The notes beneath the pieces are model-generated. The model did not search any database and was not told the origin of the DNA. It was given only the letters and a program-made list of their open reading frames with translations. This document shows positions 12,175 through 40,839 of a DNA stretch of 64,000 nucleotides, in pieces. Position numbers and translations under genes: made by a program. This stretch comes from an uncultured Acidobacteriota bacterium (GTDB lineage: Bacteria; Acidobacteriota; Thermoanaerobaculia; UBA5066; DATFVB01): NCBI GenBank assembly GCA_963813155.1, contig CAWEYG010000003.1, positions 32,001 to 96,000 of the forward strand, given 5' to 3'. Within the stretch, counting starts at the first letter, position 1. Each line of letters opens with the position of its first letter.

Positions 12175-13445
12175 GCCGGGTCCCGCCGGTCCCGCTGGCT
12201 CAGAATCAGGGCCGCGAACCCTTCCGCCATGGCTCCCGCCAGCCGATGGAGGGACGTGACCTCGCCGGGAGTAAGGGCCGATTCGCTCGGCTCGACCATC
12301 AGAAAGGCCACGACCCGCTTCTTCAGCACGACCGGAAAGAGGGCGCAACGTTCGGGGCGCCTCCCGAGGGCCGCGACCAGCGGTTCGTGCGCCGGGAGGG
12401 CCGGAAACAGGCCCTGGTAGAAGGCGGTCGACACGTGGACGTTCAGGAAGAGGGAGGGCTCCGAAAACGGGATCCGGAGCGACTGGAAGGCGGCCGGCGC
12501 GACGCCGTCGCCGCGGACTTTCCACCCGATCGCGTCTTCTTTTCGCGCGATGAAGAGCGCGACGAGGGGGTACTTGCCTTCGAGGCAGGCCAGGGCCGCA
12601 TCGGCGATCTCGTTGCGGGAATCGGCGTGGCGCATTCTGGCCGCGGCCTCGTCGATGGACATTGGCGCGGGCGCGCCGCTGGCGGGGCCTTCCTCCTCCT
12701 CGGGCGTGTACTCGAGCTCCAGCGAGGGAACTGCGGGCGCCACGGCGGGGAGCGGGGTGGGGCGGCCCCGGGGCGCGGGTTTCCAGGTCGAAATCTCGAT
12801 CTCGTCGGCTCCGGAAGCAGGGGAATCGGTCTTCCAGACGTCCGAGAGCCGGCTTGCGCCGCTCCTCCCGGTCGGGACTGCCGCCGCCTTCGCCGGTTCG
12901 GATCCTCCGAAAATCTGGGGTGGAGGGGGCGGGGGCTGCGCGACGCGGGGGCCGGCGTCGGCCGAACGGATCATCGCGCGGTCGATCTTGTCGGAGAGGA
13001 GGCGAAATCGGGCGGTCCGCTGTTTTCCGTAGAACCGTTCCAGCGCCTCGAGAATGCGGAACTCGGCCATCACGCACGGTTCGATCCTTCGCCCGGTCAC
13101 GAACCCGATCTCGTCCTCGGTCGCAAGGTCGTTCGGGTCGAGCATGGCAACCTTCAGGACCCGTCCCTGCCGGGAGAAGGGGATCGCGAGGGACCGCAAC
13201 GCGATCTTCGGCGGCAGCAGCGAGACGATCTCGCTCGGAGTCGCCCGCACGATCTCCCAGTGGGCGTACTCCCGGCCGGTGGCCTTCCCGAGCGCCCGGG
13301 CGAGAGTCTGCTCCGAAATCAGCCCCTGTTCGAGGAGCACGGTCCCGAGGCGTCCGCCGGACGCCTTCTGCACTTCGAGAGCGCGATTCAGCGCGGCCGG
13401 GGTCACGGCGCCCACCTCGAGAAGAGCCTGTCCAAGCTTCGGCAC
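12171..13445 (-). CDS. MshEN/T2SSE_N domain protein without ATPase domain
   Basis: Tandem MshEN-like motifs KLGQALLEVGAVTPAALNRALEVQ / RLGTVLLEQGLISEQTLARAL; 'VAMLDPND'; Pro-rich linker; no Walker A. Confidence 0.8.
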   Translation of the reverse strand: MPKLGQALLEVGAVTPAALNRALEVQKASGGRLGTVLLEQGLISEQTLARALGKATGREYAHWEIVRATPSEIVSLLPPKIALRSLAIPFSRQGRVLKVAMLDPNDLATEDEIGFVTGRRIEPCVMAEFRILEALERFYGKQRTARFRLLSDKIDRAMIRSADAGPRVAQPPPPPPQIFGGSEPAKAAAVPTGRSGASRLSDVWKTDSPASGADEIEISTWKPAPRGRPTPLPAVAPAVPSLELEYTPEEEEGPASGAPAPMSIDEAAARMRHADSRNEIADAALACLEGKYPLVALFIARKEDAIGWKVRGDGVAPAAFQSLRIPFSEPSLFLNVHVSTAFYQGLFPALPAHEPLVAALGRRPERCALFPVVLKKRVVAFLMVEPSESALTPGEVTSLHRLAGAMAEGFAALILSQRDRRDPA

Positions 13446-25670: not shown

Positions 25671-26022
25671 GGCGCGCCAGCGCGGCGATACATCGATCGA
25701 ATACGGGCGCGTCTCGCCGCGCCTGATCCGTCCAGACGAAACGAACCGCGAGGGTCGCGAAGAGAAAATTGAGAGCTCCAAAGAGGATCCAGACGGCAAT
25801 CGTTGCAGGCCTGCCGCCTGCTTCGATGCGCAGTCCCGCCCGCATGCAGGCCCACGCGAACACGAGAAGGATCGCAACGATCTCGTAGGCGATCCGGAGA
25901 ACTCGCAGGGACAAAACGCCGCCGATCGCGCGGCCCGTCAACCTCCTGAGTAGCCACACCAGCGGCACGAGCAGCGCCGGCAGCAGGTACGAGGTGAACA
26001 CAGCTTCGACGAACTGTTTCAT
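25642..26022 (-). CDS. Hypothetical membrane protein
   Basis: Three hydrophobic segments from ATG 26022; no motif. Confidence 0.45.
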   Translation of the reverse strand: MKQFVEAVFTSYLLPALLVPLVWLLRRLTGRAIGGVLSLRVLRIAYEIVAILLVFAWACMRAGLRIEAGGRPATIAVWILFGALNFLFATLAVRFVWTDQARRDAPVFDRCIAALARLRSASASCT

Positions 26023-26080
26023 CTGGTGCAGCAGTCGGATCAACATTGAAATCAGTATAAGAGACCGGCATACTTCCGCC

Positions 26081-26302
26081 ATGAAAAACGCACACTGGCT
26101 CGGCAGGGCGCTCCTGTTCGGTTTCGGGTGGATTTTCTTTTCCGCGATCGTCTACGTGCTCCTGGACGCTTTCGGTGTCTGGCCGGCGATTCCCCGGGGC
26201 CTGGCTGAGGCGTTCGAGGTTCTGACTGGCGCCGTGCTCGTCTTCGAGCTCTTCGGACATCTCGTGCTCTCGGCCGGGGGCGCGCGCTCGCTGCCTTCCT
26301 GA
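26081..26302 (+). CDS. Small hypothetical membrane protein
   Basis: 73 aa, two TM segments; CATACT 6 nt before the ATG. Confidence 0.5.
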   Translation: MKNAHWLGRALLFGFGWIFFSAIVYVLLDAFGVWPAIPRGLAEAFEVLTGAVLVFELFGHLVLSAGGARSLPS

Positions 26303-26311
26303 ATTTTTGGC

Positions 26312-26361
26312 TTGCATTTATTCCGGCGTCAGGTTACGGTTTTAATCAAGTCTTAAGGAGG
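26312..26361 (+). promoter_or_regulatory. Putative promoter and RBS of the cupredoxin-cyc2-cco operon
   Basis: TTGCAT (26312-26317), 17-nt spacer, TACGGT (26335-26340); AAGGAGG SD before ATG 26366; AT-rich. Confidence 0.45.
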
Positions 26362-26365
26362 CCTG

Positions 26366-27103
26366 ATGCCGCTTACTCGAACCCTTTGGACTCCTACCCG
26401 TTGCCTGATGGCGGTTCTCGCGCTCTTCGTGGTCCGACCGGCGGCTTCTTACGAGGCCGAAAAGGTGACAAACGGCGGCTCCATCGCCGGAGCAGTCAAG
26501 CTCGCGGGCGCGGCGCCGGCGGTCGCGCCGATCAAGACAACGAAAAATCAGGACTACTGCGGTATGAGCCTCGCCAACCCTCTCTACGAGGTGGGACCCG
26601 GCGGCGGGCTGGCCAACGTCGAGGTGTACATCAAGGACATCGCGAAGGGAAAGGCGAAGCCGGCCGATCCGATCGTTCTGACCAACGACCATTGCATGTT
26701 CAGCCCGCGCGTTCAGGGAGCTGTCGTCGGGCAGCAGATCAAGATCGTGTCCGACGATCCGATCCTCCACAATACACACCCGCAGATCGCGGCGACGAAC
26801 GCGACGCTTTACAACGTCGCCTTGCCTTTCAAAGGCTTTTCGGTCTTGAAGCCCCTTCTTCCGCAGGCGGGGTTGCTCAGGGTCAAGTGCGACGTGCACG
26901 AGTGGATGCGCGCCTGGATCCTCGAGCTCGACAATCCCTACTTCACGACGACCGACAAGAGCGGAAGCTTCACTCTCAAGGACGTTCCTCCGGGGACCTA
27001 TACGGTCATTGCGTGGCACGAAGTGATGGGCGAAAAAACGGGGACCGTTACGGTGGCTGCGGGCAAACCGGCTGCCCTGAATTTTCAGTTCGCCGCGAAG
27101 TAA
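26366..27103 (+). CDS. Periplasmic cupredoxin-like protein with C-terminal carboxypeptidase-regulatory-like beta-sandwich
   Basis: Signal peptide; 'CMFSPRVQ', 'DPILHNTH' and amicyanin-type C-x2-H-x2-M loop 'KCDVHEWM'; 'DVPPGTYTVIAWHE'. Confidence 0.8.
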   Translation: MPLTRTLWTPTRCLMAVLALFVVRPAASYEAEKVTNGGSIAGAVKLAGAAPAVAPIKTTKNQDYCGMSLANPLYEVGPGGGLANVEVYIKDIAKGKAKPADPIVLTNDHCMFSPRVQGAVVGQQIKIVSDDPILHNTHPQIAATNATLYNVALPFKGFSVLKPLLPQAGLLRVKCDVHEWMRAWILELDNPYFTTTDKSGSFTLKDVPPGTYTVIAWHEVMGEKTGTVTVAAGKPAALNFQFAAK

Positions 27104-27123
27104 CAGACGTCAGGAGGTGACCC

Positions 27124-28443
27124 ATGGGTCGACTCGGGTTCAAACTCGGCTCGGGACTCTGGCTTGCCATCGTCGTCGCGCTGTTCAGCGCTCCCGCCTA
27201 CGGAATCCCGGCGTTCGCCCGCAAGACCGGGCTTCGTTGCACGAGCTGCCATGAATCCTGGCCGGTTCTGAACGACTTCGGCCGGGCCTACCGGGACAAC
27301 GGCTATCAGCTTCGCCTGGGGAAGGACGATCCCACGACGACGCCGCCGGGCTACTGGCCGGTCGCGATCCGGGTCACCCCCCATTACGAATACAACACGC
27401 TCTCGAATCAGGACACGGATCAGGGTTTGAAGAACTTCAAGACGGGCGGTGTGGCGGACGGCGCCATGGATCTCCTCACCGCCGGCACGGTGACGAACAA
27501 TGTGTCGTTTCTCGTCGTGCCGACAGGCTTCGCCTCGGACGGCTCCGTGAGTCTCGAGTCGTACTGGATTTACCTGACACGTTTCCTCTTCAAGTCCGAC
27601 TGGTTCAACGTTCGGATCGGGAAGCATGAAGTGGACCTCCCGGTTTCGGCGCACCGTTCGATCAACCTCACGAATGGCTACCTGATCTACGGGTACCACC
27701 CGGGGGCCGATTCCGACGCCGGGGCTCCGTTCGACCTCGGAGCCAATCAACGGGGCGTCGAGTTCACCGGGCATGACCGAGGCTCGATGACGCGGTACAA
27801 CTTCACGGTCTTCAATGCGAACGACTCGAGCTCTTCGCGCAACGCGTTTGACTCGGCATCGTTCTACGGACACGTCCAGAAATACTGGCAGTTCGATTCG
27901 ACTGCTCTCTCGGAAGTCGAAGTCGGAGCTTTCGGCGCGTGGGCGAACTATCCGACGACCGCATTCACGTCGGGCGGTGAACCGATTGCCGGGGAGGGCG
28001 GAAATCTCAAGACCACGTCGCGCTATGGAGCCGAGGCCCAGTTCTGGCTCGGGCCTTCCGCCACGCCACTGCACTTCGAGCTTGTCGCGGCACACGGCAG
28101 CGACGAGAGGGGCCTCTACGGCGGAAACGCGAGCCGCAACGGGACCTGGAACGGCGGCTTTCTCGAAGCGGTCTGGGTGCCGGCGAAAGACCTGCTGCAC
28201 TGGGGTCTCTTCGGCCGCTACGACCTGATCCGCAATTCGAATCAACCGATCCCCGGCACTCCAAAGGACTTCGACGACCAGGACCAGATCACCGGCGGAA
28301 TCAAGTACACCTTCAACTACAACAATCGGGCGGAATACGCGCTCCATGCCGAATATCAGACGAACCGGATGAAAAAGATCGCGTCCGACGGATCCGACGT
28401 TCGCGCAAATACCGTTTTCGTGGGCATCGACTTCGCCTTTTGA
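27124..28443 (+). CDS. cyc2: Cyc2-type fused monohaem cytochrome c-porin
   Basis: Signal peptide then IPAFARKTGLRCTSCHESWPVLNDFGRAYRDNGY (PxFAR..CxxCH..P.L..FGR...NGY Cyc2 signature); beta-strand-rich body; C-terminal Phe (GIDFAF). Confidence 0.85.
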   Translation: MGRLGFKLGSGLWLAIVVALFSAPAYGIPAFARKTGLRCTSCHESWPVLNDFGRAYRDNGYQLRLGKDDPTTTPPGYWPVAIRVTPHYEYNTLSNQDTDQGLKNFKTGGVADGAMDLLTAGTVTNNVSFLVVPTGFASDGSVSLESYWIYLTRFLFKSDWFNVRIGKHEVDLPVSAHRSINLTNGYLIYGYHPGADSDAGAPFDLGANQRGVEFTGHDRGSMTRYNFTVFNANDSSSSRNAFDSASFYGHVQKYWQFDSTALSEVEVGAFGAWANYPTTAFTSGGEPIAGEGGNLKTTSRYGAEAQFWLGPSATPLHFELVAAHGSDERGLYGGNASRNGTWNGGFLEAVWVPAKDLLHWGLFGRYDLIRNSNQPIPGTPKDFDDQDQITGGIKYTFNYNNRAEYALHAEYQTNRMKKIASDGSDVRANTVFVGIDFAF

Positions 28444-28453
28444 GGAGGTACCG

Positions 28454-29220
28454 ATGAATCGCTTCGGACAACGAATTCTCGTTCTGGCGATCGGATCTCT
28501 CCTGGTGGGCTCGCTCGCTCTCGCAGCCTTGGGGGCTTCCGGCGATCCGGGGCGCGGCAAGCTCGTGTACCAGCGCTATTGCCTGTCCTGTCACGGCGAG
28601 GCCGGAAACGGAGCGGGTGAGTACGCGGAGTGGACGACCCCGAAGCCGCGGGATTACCGGCAGGGCACGTTCAAGTGGCGGTCGACGCCTTCGGGATCTC
28701 TGCCGACCGACGCCGATCTCGAGAAAACGCTCGAGGGTGGCCTGTACGGAACGGCGATGCCCACCTGGTTCGCGATCGGCCACCGTTCTCGGATGGACGT
28801 GATCTCGTACATCAAGACCTTTTCCGATCGCTGGCAGAAGGAGAAGCCTCAGGCATCGATCGTGATTCCTTCGGAGCCGGCCAACGATTCGGCTTCGATC
28901 GAGCGCGGGAAGGCGCTCTACGTGAAGTATCAGTGCGTTCAGTGCCACGGCGAGAAGGGGCTGGGAGACGGCGCGTCCTCGCACGAGCTCAAGGACGACT
29001 GGGGCAACCCGATCGTCCCGTACAACCTGACGGAGGGGCACATCAAGTGCGGAGACACGCGCAGCGGACATCTACCGCGTATTCATCACCGGGCTGAGCG
29101 GAACTCCGATGCCTTCGTACGCCGATTCCATCAATCAAGGACGACGCCTGGGACCTGGCGCACTTCATCCTCAGCCTGGGCCCTCCTGGTCCGCGGAGGA
29201 CTCCCAAGCAGGGACCCTAG
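28454..29220 (+). CDS. Dihaem class I cytochrome c, frameshifts near 29050 and 29135
   Basis: Signal/anchor; CLSCH + 'GTAMP', CVQCH + 'GTPMP'; reconstructed end '...DAWDLAHFILSLG...QGP' TAG 29218-29220. Confidence 0.85.
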
Positions 29221-29234
29221 GGCAGGGGAGCGCG

Positions 29235-29396
29235 ATGCCATCACCGAAAGTGGAAAACGATGAGGTTCACCGGTACGAGTCTTCCGGAATCGAGGAACGG
29301 CAGGGAAAGATTCCGGCGTGGCTGATTGGGGTGATCGTCGCGCTGACGATCTGGATGGTGTACTACCTTCTTCGTTTCTGGACGCCGCCGCTGTGA
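29235..29396 (+). CDS. Stand-alone CcoP N-terminal (FixP_N-like) membrane microprotein, 53 aa
   Basis: 'VHRYESSGIEERQGKIPAWLIGVIVALTIWMVYY' resembles the CcoP anchor (H.xDGI.E....P.W......TI.W...Y); SD GGGGAG. Confidence 0.65.
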   Translation: MPSPKVENDEVHRYESSGIEERQGKIPAWLIGVIVALTIWMVYYLLRFWTPPL

Positions 29397-29412
29397 GCGG
29401 AACTCGACGCCG

Positions 29413-30832
29413 ATGAGCGAGACGGCGACGAAGGTTCCCGGCGACGAGCTGGTCGATCAGCGAGTCGTCCTCCAATTTCTCCTTTCGGGAGCTTTCTGGC
29501 TCGTCTTCGCTCCCACGATCGGAGTTATTCTCTCGATCAAGTTCAATTACTACGACTTTCTCGGCGGGATTTCGTGGCTGACCTGGGGAAGGCTACGGCC
29601 CGTGCACGTGATGGGCGTGGTTTTCGGCGCCTTCACGACCACGATTTTCGGCCTGACCTATTACATGGTGCCGCGCCTCTGCGGCGTGCGGATGTACAGG
29701 GAAAACTGGAGCCGATGGATTTTCTGGATCTGGAACCTGGGATTCACGGCGGCTCTCGTGTCGCTGCCGCTCGGTCAGAATCTCGGTATCGAGGCGGGAG
29801 AGTTCCCGACCTGGGCGAACATCCTCGTCGAGATCGTCTTCGCGATGATCACGGTTCAGGTGGTCATGACGGTGATCCGGCGCAAAGAGAAGCTTATTTA
29901 CGTCACACTCTGGTACCTGACCGCGGCCTACATCTGGACGACCTTCAACTACGCTTTCGGGCACTTTCTCCTTCCGTTCCATTTCGCCGGCATCAACAAC
30001 GCCGCGATGCACGGTCTCTACATCCACTACGTCGTGGGTTTGTGGATCACGCCGGCCGGGCTCGCGGTGATCTATTACTTTCTTCCGCTCGCGGCGAAGA
30101 CAGCCGCTCTACAGCCACAGGCTCTCGTTGATCGGCTTCTGGTCTCTGGCGTTCTTCTATCCTTTCGTCGGCACCCATCACTACATCTACAGCCCGATTC
30201 CCTACTGGACGCAGACCATCGCGATCGTCGCATCGATGATGCTGATCATTCCGGTGTGGACCGTGATCCAGAACTTCTACGGAACGATGGTCGGGAATTG
30301 GAAGCGCTTCCAGGAGTCGTACACGGCGAAGTTCCTGATCGTCGGCGCGTTTTTCTATCTGTTGGGCTGTTTTCAGGGATCGACGGAGGCCCTCCGCGAG
30401 GTTCAGCGGCTCACGCACTTCACGGATTTCGTGATCGCCCACTCGCATCTGACGGTCTTCGGTACTTTCATTCTCTGGGTCACGGCGGGCCTCTACTATG
30501 TGATCCCGCGCCTTTCGGGCCGTGAGCTCTATTCGAAGAAAGCTGGCCCAGTGGCACTACTGGCTGACGGTCGGAGGGTTCTCGGTCATGGCGGCGACTT
30601 TGACCCTGCAGGGACTCCTTCAGGGCACCGATGCTTCAGGGAGGGGCGGACTTCGTCGACTCGATGGTGGCGATGAAGCCCTACTGGTTCACGCGCACGC
30701 TGGCCGGAATGACGATGGATATCGGCGCATTCTCGGGCATGTGGAATCTCTACCGGACTGCGATGGAGGGAACGCCGATCTCGCGACGCGCAGGCCGTCG
30801 GCGTGTTGGCGCCGGAGCCGCGTTGGACATAG
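29413..30832 (+). CDS. ccoN: cbb3-type (C-family) haem-copper oxidase subunit I, several frameshifts
   Basis: 'WGRLRPVH', 'YIHYVVGLW', 'YPFVGTHHY', 'HFTDFVIAHSHL' across frames 29413, 30128, 30522, 30631; probable stop TAG 30830-30832. Confidence 0.85.
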
Positions 30833-30837
30833 CGCCG

Positions 30838-32584
30838 ATGAAGAGAATCGAGCCGATCATCCTCATCGCAGCGCTCGGCTTCTATGCGCTCGCGATGACG
30901 AGCCAGGGATCCTTCTGCGTGGTTGGAAAAGAAGACGACGCGGCCGGGAACGGTCCGCACGACTCACGGGGGACGATCGTGGCCTCTCCGCGCGCGCACG
31001 CCGTCGGAAGAGAGCGGCCGGAAGATCTACATCCGCGAGGGCTGCTGGTACTGCCATTCGCAATTCATCCGCCCGGTGAATCGCGACACGGACAAATGGG
31101 GCCCGGTTTCGCAGGCGGGGGAAATGGCGTTACGACTTGCCACAGATGCTCGGGACCCGTCGAATCGGGCCCGAGCTCTCGCGCGAAGGGCAACCGGCGA
31201 TCCGACGAGTGGCACTATGCGCACCACTGGAATCCGCGCGCGGTCGAGCCGGAATCGATCATGCCGTCCTTCGACATGGCTTTACCGGAGCGATCCCGCA
31301 CACGATCGGCGGGTGCTCGGGATTTCATCCGAGAAGTTCGACGCGAACCACGACGGCCGTGTAACGAAGAGCGAGCTCGACAAGAACGGCGACGGCAGCG
31401 TGACGCCGGACGAGCTCCCGCCGGACTGGAAACAGCTGGACGTCTGGCCGGTGAACGCCGACGGCACGGTCGGGGACGGAGTCGTCGATATGCACGACTA
31501 CGGCCCGTCAGCCCACAGAGGAGATGGTCGGCGTCGAGGCGTATCTTCAGAAGATCGGAACGTCGATCGGAGACTGGCGAGTCTGGGAGCCGTGGCCGAC
31601 CCAGCGAGCGGCCCGCGCCGACCGAGCCGCTCGCGCTTCGCCTCTCGCGCGGGAAGGTTGATCTTCGAGAAGAAGTGCTCAGGGCTGCCACGGCCTCTTC
31701 GGAAACGGGCGGCTCTGACCGCGGACGCAAAGACGCTCATCGAACTTCAACGACGCGTACCACTTCCTGAACCCGCAGCCGCGAAACTTCACGTTCGGAG
31801 TTTTCAAGAGCCGAACGACGCCCTCGGGCGCGCTTCCCGCGCGACGAAGACATCTTTCGGACGATCACGCGCGGAGTTCGAAATGGCCAGATCATGCCGG
31901 CATGGGGCAATCCCCAGGACGGACACTTTCTTCCGCAGCAGGATCGCTGGGACCTGGTGGACTACGTCAAGACGTTCTCGGATCGGTTCAAGAGGAGCGG
32001 TGATCCCGCCGCCCATCGCGATTCCGGTTCCTCCGTTTCCCACGGTGAAGGAGGCTCCGCCGGAAGTGCTGGGCGAAGGGCGAAGGGTCTTTCGAATTCT
32101 TCAATGCTGGGGCTGTCACGGAATGACGGGAAGGGGAGACGGCCCGTCGGCCTCCGCTCTTCTGGACGACTGGGAGGTTCCGATCCGGCCATTCGATTTC
32201 ACGACGGGGAACTTCAAGTTCGGCGATTCTCCCGCCGACGTCTATCGGACCTTCAACACCGGCTTGAACGGCACGCCGATGCCCTCGTACTACGATTCGA
32301 TCCTCTTTCCCCGCGAAGCCCTTTCCGACATGGGACCGTTTCGGCAGGTTTTCCGCGGAAGGCCCGTTTTTTCCGAAGCGGAGATCGAGGAGCTGAAATC
32401 ATACGTCGCAACCATCCCGACGTCCGAGGAGCTTTCGAAAATGAGCGATCTGGAAAAAGGTGCTCTTGCCGATCGCCGCCGCTGGGCCCTCGTCTACTAT
32501 GCGCTTTCGCTTGCGCGTCCGGCGGGGGCTCCTCCGGTTCCGACCTCCGCGGGATTCCCGGTTCTTGCCTCGAGGAAGAAATAA
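30838..32584 (+). CDS. ccoO: cbb3-type oxidase subunit II fused to an EF-hand insert and a dihaem cytochrome c module, many frameshifts
   Basis: 'GRKIYIREGCWYCHSQFIRP', 'GTRRIGPELSREG', 'WHYAHHWNPR...PESIMP'; DANHDGRVTKSEL/DKNGDGSVTPDEL; CS(G)CH and CWGCH with Met ligands. Confidence 0.8.
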
Positions 32585-32764: not shown

Positions 32765-33481
32765 TTGCACCATAGCCTTCCCGTATCCGGAGATCTCGGC
32801 CTCGTCTTCCTCGCGTCACTTCTCGGAGGCGTCCACTGTGCCGGGATGTGCGGCCCCTATGTTGCCATTTGCTCGTCCCGAATCGTCGGGCCGAACGCCT
32901 CTTCGCGCCGGGTGAGGAATGCCCTGCGGCTCCTCTTCAATGCCGGTCGGGTTACGACGTACGTCTCGATCGGCGTTCTGGCGGGCGCGTTCGGCCAGAT
33001 CGCTGGAGCCGTCGGCCAGGCGAGAGGCTATCCGGGAGGCGTCGCGATCGCGGCGGGGGTGTTCGCGCTGTTCTTCGCCCTCTCGCTCGCGGGCGCCGCT
33101 CCCTCGGTCGAGAGCCTTGCCGCGAGCCTCGGGCTCAACCGGCTGCTGCGAGCGGGGAGTCTCGAGGCTTTTCATGCCCCACCGTATCTATCGGCATTTC
33201 TTCTCGGAAATCTCCAGGGGCTCTTTCCGTGCGCACTCGTTTACGCAGGCGCGAGCCGTGCGGCCGCCTCAGCATCGCCGGGGAGGGGAGCGCTCACGAT
33301 GTTGGTGTTCGGTCTCGGAACGCTCCCGGCGCTCCTCGCGCTGACCTTCGCTTCGAAGGCCGTGCCGGAATGGATGCGTTCGCGGCGAGGTGCCGCGGGC
33401 CTGGTGGGGGCGCTGGGAATCCTCCTCGTGCTGCGCGGCCTCGCGGGATGGGGACTGATTCCGCACACCCGCCTCTGGTGA
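32765..33481 (+). CDS. DsbD_2 / TauE-SafE-like membrane protein commonly linked to cco clusters
   Basis: 'GGVHCAGMCGP', 'FNAGRVTTY', 'GLFPCALVY', 'FGLGTLPALL'. Confidence 0.85.
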   Translation: MHHSLPVSGDLGLVFLASLLGGVHCAGMCGPYVAICSSRIVGPNASSRRVRNALRLLFNAGRVTTYVSIGVLAGAFGQIAGAVGQARGYPGGVAIAAGVFALFFALSLAGAAPSVESLAASLGLNRLLRAGSLEAFHAPPYLSAFLLGNLQGLFPCALVYAGASRAAASASPGRGALTMLVFGLGTLPALLALTFASKAVPEWMRSRRGAAGLVGALGILLVLRGLAGWGLIPHTRLW

Positions 33482-36068: not shown

Positions 36069-37069
36069 AGCCTCTCCGCGACCGCCGTGGCGAACTCTTT
36101 CGTTCCTGCCGATCCGCCGAGGTCCTTCGTCCGGATTCCCGCCGCGTAGGTTTCCTGGAGGGCGGACTCGATCCGGGAGGCGACCTCCGGGGCGCCGAGA
36201 TGCGACAGCATCATCATGGCCGAAAGGAGCATCGCGGTGGGATTGGCCAGGTTCTTTCCGGCGATGTCGGGCGCGGAGCCGTGCACCGCCTCGAACACCG
36301 CGAACTCCTCCCCGAGGTTCGCGCTTCCGACGATCCCGAGGCCTCCCACGAGGCCGGCGGCCAGGTCCGACACGATGTCGCCGTACAGGTTCTCGAGCAG
36401 GAGGACGTCGTAGGTTTCGGGGCGAAGGACGAGGTCCATGCAGAGGGCGTCGACGATCCTCTCGTCGGCGCGGATCTCGGGATATTCGGCCGCGACGCGC
36501 CGGACACAGTCGAGGAAGAGGCCGTCGGAGAGCTTCATGATGTTCGCCTTGTGGATCGCGGTCACGCGCTTGCGTCCGAAACGGCGCGCGTATTCGAACG
36601 CGAATCGCGCGATCCGGGTGGAAGCCCGTTCCGTGATGATCTTGAGCGATTCCACGACGCCGGGCACGACGACGTGCTCGAGCCCGGAGTAGAGGTCCTC
36701 GGTGTTTTCGCGGACGACGATGAGGTCGACGTCCCCGAAGCGGGAGGGCACGTTGGGGAAATTCTTGACGGGCCGCAGGTTCGCGTACAGGTCCAGCGAC
36801 TGGCGCAGGCGCACGTTGACGGACTTGAAGCCCCCGCCCACCGGAGTCGTCAGAGGACCCTTCAGCGCCGTGCCGTTTTTCCGCACGGAGTCGAGAACGG
36901 ACGGCGGCAGGGGATCGCCGTTGGCGCGGAGCGATTCGAGGCCCGCGCTGACCTCCACGAACTCGACCGGCGCGCCGGCGCGCTCGAGAATGCGGAGGAC
37001 CGCGTCGGTGATTTCCGGGCCGACGCCGTCGCCGCGGAGGAGCGTGACGGTCTTTCTGAGTTCGTTCAT
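36065..37069 (-). CDS. NAD-dependent isocitrate/isopropylmalate dehydrogenase family protein
   Basis: 'GDGVGPEI', 'KGPLTTPVGGGFKSVNV', 'RENTEDLY', 'HKANIMK', 'NLYGDIVSD', 'EAVHGSAPDIAG'. Confidence 0.93.
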   Translation of the reverse strand: MNELRKTVTLLRGDGVGPEITDAVLRILERAGAPVEFVEVSAGLESLRANGDPLPPSVLDSVRKNGTALKGPLTTPVGGGFKSVNVRLRQSLDLYANLRPVKNFPNVPSRFGDVDLIVVRENTEDLYSGLEHVVVPGVVESLKIITERASTRIARFAFEYARRFGRKRVTAIHKANIMKLSDGLFLDCVRRVAAEYPEIRADERIVDALCMDLVLRPETYDVLLLENLYGDIVSDLAAGLVGGLGIVGSANLGEEFAVFEAVHGSAPDIAGKNLANPTAMLLSAMMMLSHLGAPEVASRIESALQETYAAGIRTKDLGGSAGTKEFATAVAERL

Positions 37070-38355
37070 CGGGTTTCCTCTTCGACGACGGCCGCCGCCC
37101 TCTTGCGCGGCAGGATCATCTTCACGCGTTTGATCGCCGTGCGCGTGGCGTCGAGCACGACGTATTCCGCCTGTCGCCCGCGCAGCCGGTCGCCCTTGCG
37201 GGGAATACGCCCGAACCGCTGCAGAAGAAGGCCCGCGACCGTCTCCGCCTGGGCGTTGGGATACTTGAGGCCGAAACGGTCCTCGAGCTCTTCCAGCCGG
37301 AACGCGCCGTCGAGAGTGTAGGTGAGGTCGTCGACCCGCGAAAATCCGGGCGACTCCTCGTCGTATTCGTCCTGGATGGACCCGAGCAGCGTCTCGATCG
37401 CGTCCTCGATCGTGACGAGCCCCGCCGTCCCCCCGTACTCGTCGATGACGATGGCCATGTGCTGCTTGCGGCGGCGCATCTCGCGAAAGAGCTCCTCGAC
37501 GCGCTTGAATTCCGGCACGAGATAAGGGGCTTCGATGTAGCTCTCGGGCCGAAACGTCTTTTCCTGCTCGTCCGTGAGATCGAAGAGATCCTTGGCCTTC
37601 AAAATTCCGACGACGTTGTCCAGGGTGTCCCGGTAGACGGGGACGCGGGAGAATTTGTGGGTCGCGAGAAGGCTTCGAACCTCCGCGAAGGGGGCCCCTT
37701 CGGCGATCGCGACGATCCTCGGCCGCGGAACCATGACCTCGGAGACGCGCCGCTCGCCGAATTCGAGAACGCGGACCATTCGTTCCCGCTCTTCGCTGTG
37801 AATGAGGCCTTCCGCGTGCCCGAGGTTGATCACCGCCTTCATTTCCTCTTCGGTCATCGCCGGCCGGCTCTGCGGGAAACCGAGGAGCCGCAGGAGGCGC
37901 TGGACGAGGTAGATGACGACCGTCGCGATGGGCCCGACGATTTTCGAAAAGATCTCGAACGGCCGGGCGATCGCGAGCGCGACCCGGGACGGAGAGGCGG
38001 CGGCCAGCGACTTGGGCGCCATTTCGCCGAACGAGAAGAGCAACAGGGTCGAAGCGATGACGGCGATCGCGATCCCGCTCCGGGGCCCGAAGAAGCTTCC
38101 CGCGGCGACGGTCGCCACGGCGGAGGCCGCGGAGTTCGCGAGGTTTTGTCCGATGAGCGCGGCCGACAACAGGCGCGTGGGAGACGCCTTCAGCCGCTCG
38201 ATCGTTTCGGAGCCGCGAACGGAGCGGTCGCGCATCCGGGCGAGCTCGATCCGTCCGAGGGCGACGAGGGCGGTCTCGGAGGCGGCGAAGAACGCCGAAA
38301 CGAGAAGAAAAAAGAAGAAGAGGAGAAGCATCAGCGAGGTTCCCGCGGGAATCAT
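37066..38355 (-). CDS. HlyC/CorC (CNNM-CBS) family transporter
   Basis: 'FFAASETAL', 'GEMAPK', 'VMVPR', 'FSRVPVY', 'IDEYGGTAGLVTIED'. Confidence 0.9.
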   Translation of the reverse strand: MIPAGTSLMLLLFFFFLLVSAFFAASETALVALGRIELARMRDRSVRGSETIERLKASPTRLLSAALIGQNLANSAASAVATVAAGSFFGPRSGIAIAVIASTLLLFSFGEMAPKSLAAASPSRVALAIARPFEIFSKIVGPIATVVIYLVQRLLRLLGFPQSRPAMTEEEMKAVINLGHAEGLIHSEERERMVRVLEFGERRVSEVMVPRPRIVAIAEGAPFAEVRSLLATHKFSRVPVYRDTLDNVVGILKAKDLFDLTDEQEKTFRPESYIEAPYLVPEFKRVEELFREMRRRKQHMAIVIDEYGGTAGLVTIEDAIETLLGSIQDEYDEESPGFSRVDDLTYTLDGAFRLEELEDRFGLKYPNAQAETVAGLLLQRFGRIPRKGDRLRGRQAEYVVLDATRTAIKRVKMILPRKRAAAVVEEETR

Positions 38356-38362
38356 GGAGCTC

Positions 38363-38757
38363 TCACTTCCTGAAGAGCTCTCCACGATCGGCCGGTCCGC
38401 TTCCGGCATCGTCGCCGGATCCAGCTCGCGGATCGGCTGCCACCGCCAGACGACCGCCGCGTGGAGAGGGTCTTCGTCGATTTCGCACAGGTACGCGAGG
38501 AGGAGCACGGTTTTTTCGGGGTACGCATGATGAGCGAACTGGAAAGGCCGGAACCGGGAAATCTCGAGGCCGAGCTCTTCGCGAACCTCGCGAACGAGAG
38601 CCGCGTCGGGCGCTTCTCCCGGCTCGACCTTGCCGCCGGGAAACTCCCAGAGGCCCGCCAGGTGCGAGCCGGGCGGCCGCCGGGAGAGCAGGACCTGGCC
38701 GTCCCGGACCAGGATTCCGGCGGCGACGAGCAGGGGCGGCGCGGGAGTCTCGCTCAA
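38363..38757 (-). CDS. mutT: MutT/NudG-type Nudix (d)NTP pyrophosphohydrolase
   Basis: Nudix box 'WEFPGGKVEPGEAPDAALVREVREELG'; as given it runs in frame into corC, probably through a missing base. Confidence 0.8.
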
Positions 38758-39761
38758 TTCGATTCCGCGCCCAGGCGGCGGACCGCGGCCGCCGCCTGGG
38801 CGGACGCCGCCGGATGCCGGGAGGCCGCGATCCGTTGGAGGGCGGGAAGCAGGTCTTTCCGGTTCCGGGACTCCGCGACCGCGGCGGCGTTCCGGCGGAG
38901 CCCCGCCGGACCGGCCCGAGAGAGGGGCGTGTCCCGGAGGCGCCGCTTCCATTCGGAGGCGCCCATTCCGAGGAGCTCGGCGAGGTCCGAGGGGCGGCGC
39001 TCGAGCGGTGCCGTCTCGATCGCCCGGTTGTACGGGCAGGCTTCCTGGCACACGTCGCAACCGAACACCCACCCGCCGAGGCGCGAGACGATCTCTTCCG
39101 GAATTTCGGACCGCTGCTCGATCGTCCAGTAGGAGAGGCAGCGCGTCGCGTCGAGAACTCCGGGCCGCGGGAAAGCCGATGTCGGGCACGCGTCGAGGCA
39201 CCTCGTGCAGGAGCCGCACCGTTCGTCGACCGGCGCGTCGGCGGGGAGCTCGGCGTCGGTCAGGATCTCGCAGAGGAGAAAATAACTCCCCTCGTCGTTG
39301 AGGACCATTCCGTTCTTGCCGATCCACCCGATTCCCGCGGCGGCGGCGAAGTCTCTCTCCGCGAGCGGCGCGGAGTCGACGCAAACGCGGTGCCGCATCG
39401 CCGTCCCGGTTTCCGCTTTCCAGGCCTCGACGAGCGATTCGCATTTCGCCCGAAGCGTGCGGTGGTAGTCCTCGGCGAGCGCGTACCGCGCGGTCCGGGT
39501 CCCGTCCGGCGCCGCCGGCTCGGCCGCGGAGTAAGGCATCGCCAGGACGACGACCGACCGGGCTCCCGCGAGGAGGGTCCGGGGATCGCTCCGGAGCTCC
39601 CGCGTCTTCTCGAGGTACGCCATCGAGCCGTGCCGCCCGTCGGAGATCCACTGGCGGAATTCGGAATCGTGAGGGGGCGGCGTGGCGCGCGCGACCCCGA
39701 TCCGGGAAAAACCACGTGCTTTTGCAAGGCTTTCGAGCATGTCCCGGAGCGGGCGCGACAT
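38754..39761 (-). CDS. queG: tRNA epoxyqueuosine(34) reductase
   Basis: 'GRHGSMAYL', 'DYH', 'VDSAPLAER', 'GWIGKN', 'CGSCTRCLDACPT', 'FGCDVCQEACPYN'. Confidence 0.94.
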   Translation of the reverse strand: MSRPLRDMLESLAKARGFSRIGVARATPPPHDSEFRQWISDGRHGSMAYLEKTRELRSDPRTLLAGARSVVVLAMPYSAAEPAAPDGTRTARYALAEDYHRTLRAKCESLVEAWKAETGTAMRHRVCVDSAPLAERDFAAAAGIGWIGKNGMVLNDEGSYFLLCEILTDAELPADAPVDERCGSCTRCLDACPTSAFPRPGVLDATRCLSYWTIEQRSEIPEEIVSRLGGWVFGCDVCQEACPYNRAIETAPLERRPSDLAELLGMGASEWKRRLRDTPLSRAGPAGLRRNAAAVAESRNRKDLLPALQRIAASRHPAASAQAAAAVRRLGAESN

Positions 39762-39783
39762 CGAGCCGATGCTATCATTCCGC
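39762..39783. promoter_or_regulatory. Overlapping divergent -10 elements between queG and the AI-2E gene
   Basis: Minus TGaTAGCAT 7 nt before the queG ATG; plus TGcTATCAT 5 nt before ATG 39784. Confidence 0.6.
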
Positions 39784-40839
39784 ATGACCGAGCCCCGAAC
39801 CCCGCGAGCCTTCACGATCGTGGCGGGCGCGCTCCTCGCCTATCTGCTCTGGCGAATTCTTTCGCCGTTTCTCGATCCGATTCTGTGGGCGGCCGTTCTG
39901 GCTTTCGTGCTGGCTCCCGGGCATCGATGGCTTCTGCGCCGGGTGCGGAACCGGAACGTTGCGGCCATGCTGGCGACCGCCCTCGCGCTGCTCCTCGTGG
40001 TCGTGCCGGCGGTGCTCCTGACGCTCGCCCTGATCTCCCAGGGAACGCACCTCTATTCCCTCGCCTCCTCTTTCGTCACGCGCCATCAGGTGGCCTCGAT
40101 CTCCGACTTCATCGGGATGCCGTCGGTTCGGAAGTTCGCCGACCGGATTGCGGCCATCCTTCCCCTCACGGCGGAAGACCTCCGCGGGTGGGCGGAGACG
40201 AATCTCAAGACCGTGGCGGGTCGCATCGGCGGGTTCCTCTCGCAACTCGCCGTCGGAATCCTCGGCTTCGTTGCCTCCTTTCTCATCATGCTGTTCACGC
40301 TCTTCTTTCTCTTCCGGGACGGAGAAGACCTGTGGAAGCGGCTCGTCGACGCGATTCCGCTCGAACGGTCGCGGACCGTGTTTCTCGTCCACCGTCTCGA
40401 TTCGGTCCTCCAGGCGGTGCTCGCGGGCACTCTGCTCACGGCGCTCCTCCAGGGCATCCTCGGCGGAATCGGTTTCGCGATCTTCGGCCTTCCGTCTCCG
40501 GTCGTCTTCGGAGCGATGATGGCGGTTCTCTCGCTCCTGCCGATCGGCGGCACGGCGTTCGTCTGGCTCCCCGCCGCCCTCTTCCTCCTCGCCCAGGGCC
40601 ACTGGGGCCGCGGCGTGGGACTGGCCGCGTGGGGGATCCTCATCGTCGGGCTCGCGGACAACTGGTTCAAGCCGATGATCATTTCGGGGCGGTCGGACCT
40701 GAACACGCTGCCCGTGTTCTTCGGAGTTCTCGGCGGCCTCGCCGCCTTCGGCTTTCTCGGTCTCTTCATCGGACCGCTCGTCGTCGCGCTCGGGATCACC
40801 GCGTGGGAAACTGCGACGGCCCGGCCGGCGCCCGATTGA
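39784..40839 (+). CDS. AI-2E family transporter
   Basis: 'PILWAAVLA', 'FFLFRDG', 'QGILGGIGF', 'DNWFKP', 'FGFLGLFIGP'. Confidence 0.9.
   Translation: MTEPRTPRAFTIVAGALLAYLLWRILSPFLDPILWAAVLAFVLAPGHRWLLRRVRNRNVAAMLATALALLLVVVPAVLLTLALISQGTHLYSLASSFVTRHQVASISDFIGMPSVRKFADRIAAILPLTAEDLRGWAETNLKTVAGRIGGFLSQLAVGILGFVASFLIMLFTLFFLFRDGEDLWKRLVDAIPLERSRTVFLVHRLDSVLQAVLAGTLLTALLQGILGGIGFAIFGLPSPVVFGAMMAVLSLLPIGGTAFVWLPAALFLLAQGHWGRGVGLAAWGILIVGLADNWFKPMIISGRSDLNTLPVFFGVLGGLAAFGFLGLFIGPLVVALGITAWETATARPAPD

What the first reader, a model, noticed from the sequence alone, without database searches (positions are those of the whole stretch)
27124..28443. Cyc2-type monohaem cytochrome-porin
The mature N-terminus IPAFARKTGLRCTSCHESWPVLNDFGRAYRDNGY matches the Cyc2 haem-domain signature. 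It is followed by ~370 aa of alternating beta-strands ending in a BAM-type terminal Phe. The ORF is intact, unlike its neighbours. Function is best supported for cluster 1 Cyc2; other clusters are less certain, so the oxidase context matters.
Basis: partly seen in the sequence, partly recalled or inferred. Interest (0 to 1): 0.78.

Follow-up and report, generated by a model that had tools for sequence, protein, structure and literature searches.

The report
Cyc2-type cytochrome-porin in an oxidase operon
This intact gene encodes an outer-membrane pore fused to a single-haem cytochrome of the Cyc2 iron-oxidase family, sitting in a conserved operon with the carriers and oxygen reductase it would feed, so it is a credible but not new kind of iron-oxidation module in a soil Acidobacteriota genome.

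Summary
Window 27124-28443 (+) is an intact 439-aa ORF. It has a signal peptide, one CXXCH, the Cyc2-defining PXFAR[Q/K][T/Y]...CXXCH...PXL motif (Keffer 2021) and a terminal Phe. AlphaFold2 gives a confident beta-barrel (pLDDT 84.1, pTM 0.83). Its best solved look-alikes are 16-strand porins, including OprP and OprO.

The family is large: 1583 50%-identity clusters at E<=1e-3. The closest genomes are Acidobacteriota/Thermoanaerobaculia MAGs. The gene evolves under strong constraint (dN/dS about 0.09).

It lies in an operon kept in 4 of 5 related loci: a cupredoxin-like protein, Cyc2, a dihaem cytochrome c, cbb3 oxidase CcoN and CcoO/P, and a CcdA-like protein.

The downstream genes are broken in this window by 22 one- or two-base insertions. 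Ignoring those bases leaves no stops and normal constraint, so I read the breaks as sequence error or very recent damage.

I could not test cluster assignment because no named Cyc2 reference was obtainable. Literature points to Cluster 3, the Cyt572-like group whose function is least certain. Verdict: a new member of a known kind, of moderate interest.

The parts
25994..26302 (+). Small hydrophobic ORF (ATG at 26082) at the head of the cluster; function unknown; possible operon start
   Evidence: ORF and sequence. No Pfam or NCBIfam hit. DNA similarity to L001 and L002 covers it. The only promoter-like site of the region lies at 26046-26074, and one such site is no more than shuffles give.
26366..27103 (+). 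Intact 245-aa secreted protein (P0444): N-terminal cupredoxin-like domain with a candidate type-1 copper site (H135/H138, C175, H178, M181), plus a C-terminal CarboxypepD_reg-type beta-sandwich. Candidate periplasmic electron carrier.
   Evidence: Pfam CarboxypepD_reg at 193-241, E 1.5e-10. The ligand-like residues are invariant in 5 orthologues and in 30 homologues. AF2 pLDDT is 80.4. Best Foldseek matches are cupredoxins, but weakly: E 1.1e-3 to 3e-2, none at or below 0.001. One source names a homologue 'plastocyanin'. Adjacent to the Cyc2 gene in 4 of 5 loci.
27124..28443 (+). Cyc2-family fused monohaem cytochrome-porin, 439 aa (P0001), intact
27124..27204 (+). Signal peptide, residues 1-27 (basic n-region, hydrophobic core, A-Y-G before the cut)
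   Evidence: Read from the sequence. It aligns with AxA sites of relatives in A1. No signal-peptide predictor was run.
27208..27270 (+). Cyc2 signature PAFARKT-GLR-CTSCH-ESW-PVL (residues 29-49): haem c attachment site with flanking family motif
   Evidence: motif definition from Keffer 2021 passages. P29, F31, C39, C42, H43 and P47 are invariant in 35 of 35 sequences. This is the only such motif in the six-frame translation of the window.
27352..28440 (+). Beta-barrel porin domain (about residues 77-439) ending in the ...GIDFAF beta-signal-like C-terminus
   Evidence: DSSP on the AF2 model gives 17 strand segments from 80 to 438. The first two (80-84, 87-98) are nearly contiguous, so there are about 16 strands. 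Foldseek finds 16-strand porins: PorB 1.4e-11, OprP 8.0e-11, OprO 4.2e-8.
28454..29263 (+). Dihaem c-type cytochrome (c4/CcoP-like), the likely periplasmic shuttle. Frame broken by extra bases at 29059 and 29135; the orthologous end is near 29217.
   Evidence: Pfam Cytochrom_C, 2 stretches. tblastn frames run 2 then 3 then 1. Insertions. The orthologue in L002 is an intact 254-aa protein with two cytochrome c domains.
29413..30840 (+). cbb3-type oxidase subunit I (CcoN), broken by extra bases at 30100, 30535 and 30628
   Evidence: Pfam COX1 hits in two frames. NCBIfam best match is TIGR00780 ccoN. tblastn shows four frame segments. Intact in L001, L002, L003 and L005.
30838..32584 (+). Fused CcoO/CcoP-like subunit (FixO + EF-hand-like + two cytochrome c domains), broken by about 16 extra-base events between 30917 and 31994
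   Evidence: The L002 orthologue is 576 aa with FixO at 3.1e-43 plus Cytochrom_C.
32765..33481 (+). DsbD_2 (CcdA-like) membrane protein, the thiol-reductant supplier for cytochrome c maturation; intact
   Evidence: Pfam PF13386, E 2.1e-38. Syntenic in L001, L002, L003 and L005.

Best explanation
The gene encodes a Cyc2-family fused cytochrome-porin. This is an outer-membrane beta-barrel of about 16 strands whose N-terminal 50 or so residues carry one covalently bound haem c. It is the outermost component of a self-contained electron-uptake chain encoded around it.

The proposed path is as follows. A soluble extracellular reductant, most likely Fe(II), is oxidised at the haem of Cyc2. The electron passes to periplasmic carriers: the dihaem cytochrome c encoded immediately downstream, and possibly the cupredoxin-like protein encoded immediately upstream. 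It then reaches a high-affinity cbb3-type oxidase that reduces O2. A CcdA-like protein supports haem attachment.

Shown here: the motif, the fold, the conserved gene order and purifying selection. Inferred: haem attachment, Fe(II) as substrate, the order of carriers and the direction of flow. The frame breaks in the oxidase genes of this window are most likely errors of the sequence, or at most very recent damage, and not old decay.
For: Motif and length criteria of Keffer 2021 are all met.

The AF2 model is a barrel with pLDDT 84.1 and pTM 0.83. Foldseek gives 255 PDB matches at E<=0.001. They are headed by PorB (1.4e-11), with OprP at rank 4 and OprO at rank 30. These are the same porins that Keffer 2021 names for Cyc2 (OprO/OprP) and PMC10654088 names for Cyt572 (PorB).

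The family is deep and the motif is conserved. 1583 representative clusters score E<=1e-3. 247 of 319 stored proteins carry the strict motif, and that set includes fragments and my own reverse-strand translation.

dN/dS against L002 is 0.091.

The gene order P0444 - Cyc2 - dihaem c - CcoN - CcoO/P - DsbD_2 is kept in L001, L002, L003 and L005, down to 51-52% Cyc2 identity in L005.

NCBIfam's best families for the oxidase are ccoN and ccoO.

Published pathway models place Cyc2, then a dihaem Cyc1 or other periplasmic cytochrome, then cbb3 oxidase (PMC7029218 passages). For Leptospirillum the model is Cyt572, then Cyt579, then cbb3 (PMC10654088 passages).

A Cyc2-like gene followed by a dihaem c-type cytochrome also occurs in cultured Caballeronia sp. 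SBC1, next to a HiPIP gene. In Methylocystis sp. MJC1 it is followed by three genes annotated c-type cytochrome.

On the breaks: with the window-specific bases ignored, the three broken genes have 0 stops. Their aa identities to L002 are 85.5, 87.2 and 81.9%, and dN/dS is 0.089-0.113. The intact relatives give 0.056-0.151.
Against: No direct comparison with a biochemically characterised Cyc2 was possible. The three cluster look-ups returned only unnamed or 'hypothetical' MAG proteins, so cluster placement is untested.

Literature suggests Cluster 3. Keffer 2021 calls that cluster's function 'most uncertain'.

No Pfam or NCBIfam family matches the protein, and no solved structure matches by sequence.

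No second His or Met is conserved across the family as a sixth haem ligand. The best candidates are H217 in 30 of 35 sequences, H250 in 26 of 35 and H408 in 25 of 35.

As the sequence stands, the oxidase and the dihaem cytochrome are not translatable.

Many carriers of Cyc2 homologues are not known to oxidise iron (Keffer 2021 passage).

The NCBIfam scores for ccoN and ccoO are below the curated cut-offs (261 vs 583 bits; 139.5 vs 200.65 bits).
Confidence: 0.6

Rival explanations
1. The architecture and electron direction are the same, but the physiological donor is not Fe(II). It could be Mn(II), reduced humic or quinone compounds, or another soluble reductant. Alternatively the module serves Fe(II) detoxification or O2 scavenging and not energy conservation.
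For: Keffer 2021 states that Cyc2 may have additional functions and that much of Clusters 2 and 3 is unverified. Labelled relatives come from groups not known as iron oxidisers: Steroidobacteraceae, Gemmatimonadaceae, Myxococcales, Krumholzibacteria and Eisenbacteria. In Tenderiales, Cyc2 is judged at most auxiliary (preprint passage).
Against: Every Cyc2 homologue assayed so far oxidises Fe(II): A. ferrooxidans Cyc2, Cyt572, Cyc2PV-1 and Cyc2TAG1_1. No other substrate has been shown for the family in the passages I read.
Confidence: 0.2
2. The module is dead in this organism. The cbb3 oxidase and dihaem cytochrome are true pseudogenes, and the intact Cyc2 gene is an orphan remnant or has been recruited to another chain.
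For: 22 frame-disrupting insertions lie between 29059 and 31994. tblastn shows repeated frame changes in all three genes. The Cyc2 and P0444 genes just upstream carry none.
Against: All 22 events are insertions, and 21 of the 22 positions are gaps in all three relatives. None lies in a run of four or more identical bases. With them ignored there are 0 stops, and dN/dS (0.089-0.113) is no higher than in intact relatives. Long decay would not look like this. At the density seen in that block, about 11 events would be expected in the 1320-base Cyc2 gene, where none occurs (my arithmetic). So the block is sharply bounded, as a local sequence-quality problem would be. L001, a related MAG, also has an isolated frame change in ccoO/P.
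Confidence: 0.12
3. The protein exports electrons (extracellular reduction), or is a haem-bearing solute porin or sensor with no respiratory role.
For: The fold is that of a general or anion-selective porin. Direction of electron flow cannot be read from the sequence.
Against: Conserved operon linkage to a terminal oxidase and periplasmic c-type carriers in 4 of 5 loci argues for inward flow to O2. Known electron-export conduits use multihaem proteins in 26-strand barrels (Keffer 2021 passage).
Confidence: 0.05

Closest known systems
Cyc2PV-1 (Mariprofundus ferrooxydans) and Cyc2TAG1_1 (Ghiorsea bivora), Cluster 1 Cyc2
   Same: They share a signal peptide, one CXXCH preceded by the PXFAR[Q/K][T/Y] motif and followed by PXL, and a fused 16-strand porin. 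The proposed hand-over is to periplasmic cytochromes and a cbb3 oxidase.
   Different: The host is a different phylum (Acidobacteriota). The cluster is probably different. In this window the oxidase and carriers are encoded in the same operon.
Cyt572 of Leptospirillum (Cluster 3 Cyc2) with Cyt579 and cbb3 oxidase
   Same: PMC10654088 (passages) says Cyt572 derives from a dense cluster of homologues from Acidobacteria and Nitrospira, and that its model best matches PorB. PorB is also the top fold hit here. Relatives here include Nitrospirota MAG proteins. The pathway ends in a cbb3 oxidase. The dihaem cytochrome orthologue gives a weak NCBIfam hit to 'cytochrome 579' (E 1.4e-8, 34.7 bits against a cut-off of 280).
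   Different: Leptospirillum is an acidophile. Cyt572 has an unusual haem and a long branch. Its pathway genes are not clustered in Leptospirillum. Kinship with this protein was not tested here.
Acidithiobacillus ferrooxidans Cyc2 and its iron-oxidation operon (Cluster 2)
   Same: The logic is the same: an outer-membrane monohaem cytochrome-porin, a dihaem c4-type cytochrome, a copper protein and a terminal oxidase (component list in PMC10654088 passage; Cyc1 role; the operon order is recalled, not read).
   Different: It uses an aa3 oxidase where this operon has cbb3, and rusticyanin where this operon has the P0444 type. The FARQT-type homologue I could fetch (Caballeronia) matches P0001 only over the cytochrome domain: 50% identity over 46 aa, E 2e-12.
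16-strand porins PorB, Omp32, OprP, OprO
   Same: Barrel fold: PorB E 1.4e-11, OprP E 8.0e-11 with TMq 0.56, OprO 4rjw E 4.2e-8. Some family members carry a precomputed Pfam Porin_O_P domain.
   Different: They have no haem domain. Sequence identity is 10-15%, and there is no sequence-level match.
MtoAB / PioAB / MtrCAB porin-cytochrome complexes
   Same: They are outer-membrane conduits for iron redox chemistry.
   Different: They have separate decahaem and 26-strand barrel subunits (Keffer 2021 passage). This protein is a single polypeptide with one haem and a smaller barrel.

Membership tests
Cyc2 fused cytochrome-porin family (criteria of Keffer et al. 2021) | N-terminal signal peptide | tested here: met
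   Residues 1-27 have basic residues (R3, K7), a hydrophobic core and A-Y-G before I28. They align with AxA sites in relatives. This is by inspection only; no predictor was run.
Cyc2 fused cytochrome-porin family (criteria of Keffer et al. 2021) | Exactly one CXXCH haem c-binding motif | tested here: met
   One CXXCH at residues 39-43, and only two Cys in the protein.
Cyc2 fused cytochrome-porin family (criteria of Keffer et al. 2021) | PXFAR[Q/K][T/Y] just upstream of CXXCH, said to be unique to Cyc2 | tested here: met
   PAFARKT at residues 29-35, three residues before C39. The longer form AXPXFAR... has G, not A, at its first position.
Cyc2 fused cytochrome-porin family (criteria of Keffer et al. 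2021) | PXL motif 4 residues after CXCCH-type site (CXXCH) | tested here: met
   H43-E-S-W-P47-V-L49. P47 is invariant and L49 is conserved in at least 90% of 35 sequences.
Cyc2 fused cytochrome-porin family (criteria of Keffer et al. 2021) | Length of at least 365 aa | tested here: met
   439 aa.
Cyc2 fused cytochrome-porin family (criteria of Keffer et al. 2021) | C-terminal 16-strand beta-barrel porin with structural likeness to OprO/OprP | tested here: met
   AF2 pLDDT 84.1, with 17 DSSP strand segments amounting to about 16 strands. OprP 2o4v is rank 4 and OprO 4rjw rank 30 among 16-strand porins. The exact strand count was not verified on coordinates.
Cyc2 fused cytochrome-porin family (criteria of Keffer et al. 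2021) | Placement inside the published Cyc2 tree, or a score above cut-off with a FeGenie Cyc2 HMM | not tested
   Neither the HMMs, the figshare alignment nor any named reference sequence was available. Look-ups returned no named Cyc2.
Cyc2 fused cytochrome-porin family (criteria of Keffer et al. 2021) | Covalently bound haem and Fe(II)-oxidising activity | not testable with these tools
   Requires expression, haem stain, redox titration and an Fe(II) assay, as.
Cyc2 Cluster 3 (Cyt572-like) | Groups with Cluster 3 sequences on the Cyc2 tree | not tested
   Literature lead only. Cyc2 of Acidobacteriota and Gemmatimonadota MAGs were placed in Cluster 3 (PMC9671151 passage). Cyt572 is linked to Acidobacteria/Nitrospira homologues (PMC10654088 passage).
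Cyc2 Cluster 1 (neutrophilic iron oxidisers) | Groups with Zetaproteobacteria/Gallionellaceae/Chlorobi Cyc2 | not tested
   No reference sequences were available. None of the labelled relatives found belongs to those taxa.
cbb3-type (C-family) haem-copper oxidase, for the downstream genes | CcoN and CcoO subunits recognisable by family models | tested here: inconclusive
   Pfam COX1 (76.6 and 124.1 bits against 34.8) and FixO (50.6 against 29.6) pass. NCBIfam's best families are ccoN and ccoO, but the intact L002 orthologues score below the curated cut-offs: 261 against 583 bits and 139.5 against 200.65 bits.
cbb3-type (C-family) haem-copper oxidase, for the downstream genes | Uninterrupted reading frames | tested here: not met
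   In the window CcoN is split over four frame segments and CcoO/P over many. Both are intact in L002, L003 and L005.
Cupredoxin (type-1 copper protein), for upstream P0444 | His...Cys-Xn-His-Xm-Met ligand set | tested here: met
   H135/H138, C175, H178 and M181 are invariant in 30 of 30 sequences. The reading as copper ligands, and the likeness to the amicyanin loop, are my inference and recall.
Cupredoxin (type-1 copper protein), for upstream P0444 | Cupredoxin fold or family-model match | tested here: inconclusive
   Foldseek's best hits are cupredoxins (plastocyanin 7pcy TMt 0.63, E 1.8e-3), but 0 matches reach E<=0.001 and residues 136-150 have pLDDT below 50. There is no copper-protein Pfam hit at E<=1. 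An Atlas cluster named 'Blue (Type 1) copper domain' scores only 0.84.

The most novel reading that the evidence does not exclude
The six-gene block (cupredoxin-like P0444, Cyc2, dihaem cytochrome c, CcoN, CcoO/P, CcdA-like) is a portable, self-sufficient 'Fe(II)-to-O2' respiratory cassette. It has lower GC than its surroundings and close homologues in other phyla. It would let abundant soil heterotrophs such as Thermoanaerobaculia, and possibly Steroidobacteraceae and Gemmatimonadaceae, oxidise iron facultatively. P0444 would be a new class of blue-copper protein fused to a transthyretin-like domain, serving as the dedicated acceptor of Cluster 3 Cyc2. That would give the least understood Cyc2 cluster a defined pathway.
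Probability: 0.3. Interest if true: 0.6.

Novelty: new member of a known kind. Interest (0 to 1): 0.4.

Why it matters
Cyc2 is the most widely used marker for microbial iron oxidation. Its meaning outside Cluster 1 is uncertain (Keffer 2021). Here a Cyc2 homologue of the poorly understood, probably Cluster 3, type is physically tied to its likely electron acceptors and to a high-affinity oxidase, in an operon conserved across Acidobacteriota relatives. Genomic context therefore supports an electron-uptake role, and it names concrete partners to test together: the dihaem cytochrome and the cupredoxin-like protein. If the module works, iron oxidation at low O2 may be a facultative trait of common soil bacteria that are not counted as iron oxidisers. 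The run of insertions next door is also a practical warning. Pathway calls from this assembly would wrongly score the oxidase as absent or pseudogenised.

Tried and rejected
**Finding a named Cyc2 reference for a tree.** This failed.
- Three cluster look-ups of 30 proteins gave only MAG 'hypothetical protein' labels or none.
- A profile search from four distant members (A2) again listed only uncultured sources.
- The single genome-contig scan gave five Acidobacteriota loci.
- Keffer's logo figure S8 is held only as a legend. The figshare tree and alignment are outside the library.

**Family libraries.** Pfam and NCBIfam do not recognise P0001. PDB sequence searches with the protein and with the profile found nothing.

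**Complex prediction.** Cyc2 (residues 28-439) with P0444 (28-245) scored 0.03 against a mark of 0.32. That is no verdict, and I do not use it as evidence either way.

**Opposite-strand ORF.** I rejected the 491-aa ORF at 27085-28560 as a gene, because GC3 and all homology support the + frame.

**Old pseudogenes.** I rejected this reading for the oxidase genes, because constraint is undiminished once the extra bases are ignored.

**Homopolymer slippage.** I rejected it as the cause of the insertions. None lies in a run of 4 or more. By my reading, 8 of the 19 single-base events merely duplicate a neighbouring base, which is about what random insertion would give.

Full report
**1. The observation**

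An ORF of 439 codons runs from ATG 27124 to TGA 28441-28443 on the + strand. AGGAGG lies seven bases upstream of the ATG. The frame has GC3 of 0.79, typical of genes in this 67% GC window. The longer ORF on the opposite strand is a high-GC shadow.

The protein has a single CXXCH (C39-H43) and no other cysteine. It ends in ...GIDFAF. The six-frame translation of the whole window holds only this one PxF[AST][RK]...CxxCH site.

**2. What the protein is**

Pfam and NCBIfam do not recognise it. Neither the protein nor a family profile matches any PDB sequence.

It nevertheless belongs to a very large family.
- The word-indexed search gave 341 proteins at E<=0.001 among 5147 candidates. The 120 listed were 87-55% identical and nearly all 430-470 aa.
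- The exhaustive search of 1.84 billion representatives gave 1583 clusters at E<=1e-3, 271 at E<=1e-10 and 65 at E<=1e-30.
- In an alignment of 35 full-length members (27-87% identical to the query), P29, F31, C39, C42, H43, P47, G53, G60, P79 and G166 are invariant. A30, R33 and L49 are at least 90% conserved.

These invariant positions match the signature that Keffer et al. 2021 define for Cyc2: PXFAR[Q/K][T/Y] before the CXXCH and PXL after it. The paper says the first motif is 'unique to Cyc2' and uses it as an inclusion criterion, together with length of at least 365 aa (passages read).

Of the 319 proteins then in store, 247 carry the strict pattern and 291 a relaxed one. That set includes fragments and my own reverse-strand translation. 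The 28 without the motif are almost all N-terminally truncated pieces.

**3. Fold**

AlphaFold2 on the 35-row alignment gives mean pLDDT 84.1 and pTM 0.83. It shows short helices in residues 29-58, then 17 DSSP strand segments from 80 to 438. The first two segments are nearly contiguous, so there are about 16 strands.

Foldseek against the PDB returns 255 matches at E<=0.001. All the top matches are porins: PorB 1.4e-11, BpsOmp38, OprP (rank 4, 8.0e-11, TMq 0.56), Omp32, and OprO (4rjx rank 24, 4rjw rank 30).

Keffer 2021 reports the same OprO/OprP likeness for Cyc2. PMC10654088 reports PorB as the best match for a Cyt572 model. The 2026 Ghiorsea study describes a 16-strand barrel fused to the haem domain.

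I had no model coordinates, so I could not check whether the haem domain plugs the barrel.

**4. Organism and relatives**

The genome scan found five loci, all in Acidobacteriota or Thermoanaerobaculia MAGs. Their Cyc2 identities are 93, 86, 87, 73 and 51%.

Labelled relatives further out come from Steroidobacteraceae and other Gammaproteobacteria, Gemmatimonadaceae, Nitrospirota, 'Ca. Acidoferrales', Myxococcales, Krumholzibacteria and Eisenbacteria MAGs. All are 'hypothetical protein'.

A profile of four distant members aligns end to end with the query's family (hhalign probability 100).

In the plasmid collection, tblastn found 8 records: 5 Ralstonia, 2 Caballeronia and 1 Methylocystis. The Caballeronia and Methylocystis ORFs carry PAFARQTG...CVACH and PSFARQTG...CATCH respectively, and both end in Phe. 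P0001 matches the Caballeronia protein only over the cytochrome domain: 50% over 46 residues, E 2e-12. This fits the 17-23% between-cluster identities tabulated in Keffer's Figure S7 text.

**5. Cluster assignment was not tested**

No named Cyc2 (PV-1, A. ferrooxidans, Cyt572) could be obtained through the tools. The published HMMs and alignment are outside the library.

Two papers give a lead.
- Kato et al. 2022 placed Cyc2 from Acidobacteriota, Gemmatimonadota and other hot-spring MAGs in Cluster 3 (passage).

I therefore expect Cluster 3. Keffer 2021 regards that cluster as functionally 'most uncertain'.

**6. Context**

The gene sits in a co-directional block:
- a small hydrophobic ORF (25994-26302);
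- P0444 (26366-27103);
- Cyc2 (27124-28443);
- a dihaem cytochrome c (from 28454);
- CcoN (from 29413);
- a fused CcoO/CcoP-like protein (30838-32584);
- a DsbD_2/CcdA-like protein (32765-33481).

The order from P0444 to DsbD_2 is the same in L001, L002, L003 and L005. L004 lacks the P0444 gene upstream and ends inside Cyc2. So linkage holds in 4 of 5 loci, and down to 51-52% Cyc2 identity.

GC is 0.606-0.624 across 26-32 kb, against 0.64-0.71 elsewhere. Together with the cross-phylum relatives, this hints at horizontal acquisition.

The arrangement mirrors published pathway models. One is Cyc2, then dihaem Cyc1 or other periplasmic cytochromes, then cbb3 oxidase (PMC7029218 passages). The other is Cyt572, then Cyt579, then cbb3 in Leptospirillum, where the genes are not clustered.

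**7. The upstream protein**

P0444 is a secreted 245-aa protein. Only its last 50 residues match a family (CarboxypepD_reg).

H109-C110-M111, H135, H138, C175, H178 and M181 are invariant in 5 orthologues and in 30 homologues at 58-84% identity. The H...C-x2-H-x2-M pattern looks like a type-1 copper site. The amicyanin comparison is from recall.

The AF2 model (pLDDT 80.4) finds cupredoxins as its best partners:
- NirK domain, E 1.1e-3;
- plastocyanin, E 1.8e-3, TMt 0.63;
- the purple cupredoxin, amicyanin and AcoP.

The C-terminal domain matches the rhamnogalacturonan-lyase beta-sandwich. No match reaches E<=0.001, and the loop 136-150 is modelled poorly.

One source calls a homologue 'plastocyanin'. 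An Atlas cluster named 'Blue (Type 1) copper domain' scores 0.84, which is a lead only.

By my reading of the two listings, 9 of the 120 listed P0444 homologues share their longest-contig length with one of the 120 listed Cyc2 homologues. This suggests the pair travels together. I rate the cupredoxin reading at about 0.6.

**8. The broken neighbours**

Against L001, L002 and L003, the window has 22 extra one- or two-base stretches between 29059 and 31994 (19 single, 3 double). At 21 of the 22 positions all three relatives have a gap.

They split the dihaem cytochrome (2 events), CcoN (3) and CcoO/P (about 16). One further event lies just before the CcoO/P start codon.

None occurs from 26436 to 29058 or from 31995 to 32565. 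All are insertions, and none lies in a homopolymer of 4 or more.

Reading only the alignment columns where L002 has a base gives these results for the three genes:

| Gene | Stops | aa identity to L002 | dN/dS |
|---|---|---|---|
| dihaem cytochrome c | 0 | 85.5% | 0.105 |
| CcoN | 0 | 87.2% | 0.089 |
| CcoO/P | 0 | 81.9% | 0.113 |

These values cannot be told apart from those of the intact L001 and L003 copies, whose dN/dS is 0.056-0.151. Natural decay long enough to collect 22 indels would also show deletions, stops and relaxed dN/dS.

I conclude that the breaks are local sequence or assembly error, or at most very recent. The operon should be treated as probably functional. Only the reads can settle this.

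L002, L003 and L005 are fully intact. L001 has one frame change in ccoO/P. Elsewhere in the window, Pfam scans of 59 ORFs showed one other likely split, a Peptidase_M50 gene near 11250.

**9. Mechanism**

Shown: family signature, barrel fold, strong purifying selection on Cyc2 (dN/dS 0.091), and conserved operon.

Inferred:
- haem c is attached at C39/C42 with H43 as ligand;
- Fe(II) is oxidised at the barrel-held haem;
- electrons pass to the dihaem cytochrome and/or P0444 and then to the cbb3 oxidase;
- the CcdA-like protein supports cytochrome maturation.

An open point is the sixth haem ligand. No second His or Met is conserved family-wide as a candidate. The best candidates are H217 in 30 of 35 sequences, H250 in 26 of 35 and H408 in 25 of 35. 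The Ghiorsea enzyme is low-spin with two axial ligands.

**10. Novelty**

Cyc2 homologues are catalogued in the thousands; Keffer's tree holds 1593. They have already been reported in Acidobacteriota MAGs, so the protein is a new member of a known kind.

I found no paper describing this operon or the P0444 partner. The searches were 'Cyc2 + Thermoanaerobaculia' (1 paper), 'Cyc2 + Acidobacteriota + cbb3 + iron oxidation' (12), 'Cyc2 + cupredoxin + cbb3 + gene cluster' (4) and 'Thermoanaerobaculia + iron oxidation' (3). I read only passages of five of the papers they listed. The library lacks most subscription journals, and bioRxiv supplements were closed.

**11. What I saw of each paper**
- PMC8406198: passages, the supplement list, the S8 legend and the S7 text.
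- PMC7029218, PMC9671151, PMC12442345, PMC13692758, PMC10654088 and preprint 10.1101/2022.05.06.490989: passages only.
- All other titles: search listings only.

Noticed in passing
window 29059-31994: A sharply bounded block of 22 window-specific one- or two-base insertions relative to three related genomes. All are insertions and none lies in a long homopolymer. They break three respiratory genes that otherwise show full purifying selection. The pattern looks technical (an insertion-biased error stretch), not evolutionary.
   Followed up: yes
window 10454-11803 (-) and 10894-11385 (-): A Peptidase_M50 (RseP-like) gene appears split over two frames. Profile positions 1-106 fall in one ORF and 162-200 in another. 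This suggests one more frameshift near 11250.
   Followed up: no
window 26001-32000: The Cyc2/oxidase block has GC 0.606-0.624, against 0.64-0.71 in the rest of the window. Cyc2 relatives at 55-58% identity occur in Gammaproteobacteria MAGs. Both are hints of horizontal acquisition.
   Followed up: partly
window 26366-27103: The upstream protein P0444 has an invariant H...C-x2-H-x2-M pattern and a weakly cupredoxin-like predicted fold, fused to a CarboxypepD_reg beta-sandwich. It also has an invariant H109-C110-M111 triplet of unknown role. Its family has at least 771 members at E<=0.001.
   Followed up: partly
L006 3941-5281 (Caballeronia sp. SBC1 plasmid pSBC1_3): The RefSeq CDS named 'cytochrome C' (WP_206366205.1) starts at locus position 4073, just after the CXXCH. 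The open frame from 3941 includes a signal peptide and the Cyc2 motif, so the annotated start looks wrong. The gene is flanked by a HiPIP gene and a dihaem c-type cytochrome gene.
   Followed up: partly
L001 about 12660-12770: The related MAG L001 has a single frame change inside its ccoO/P gene (frame 3 to frame 1), while L002, L003 and L005 are intact. This shows that isolated indels occur in this kind of assembly.
   Followed up: no
window 37066-39651 (-): One long ORF joins a NUDIX domain to a CNNM/CBS/CorC transporter in the same frame and overlaps a QueG-like ORF (38754-39815). It may be two genes or an over-extended start.
   Followed up: no
window 27124-28443 (P0001), family alignment A1: No second His or Met is conserved across the family as a sixth haem ligand. 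The best candidate is H217, present in 30 of 35 sequences and located in the barrel domain.
   Followed up: partly
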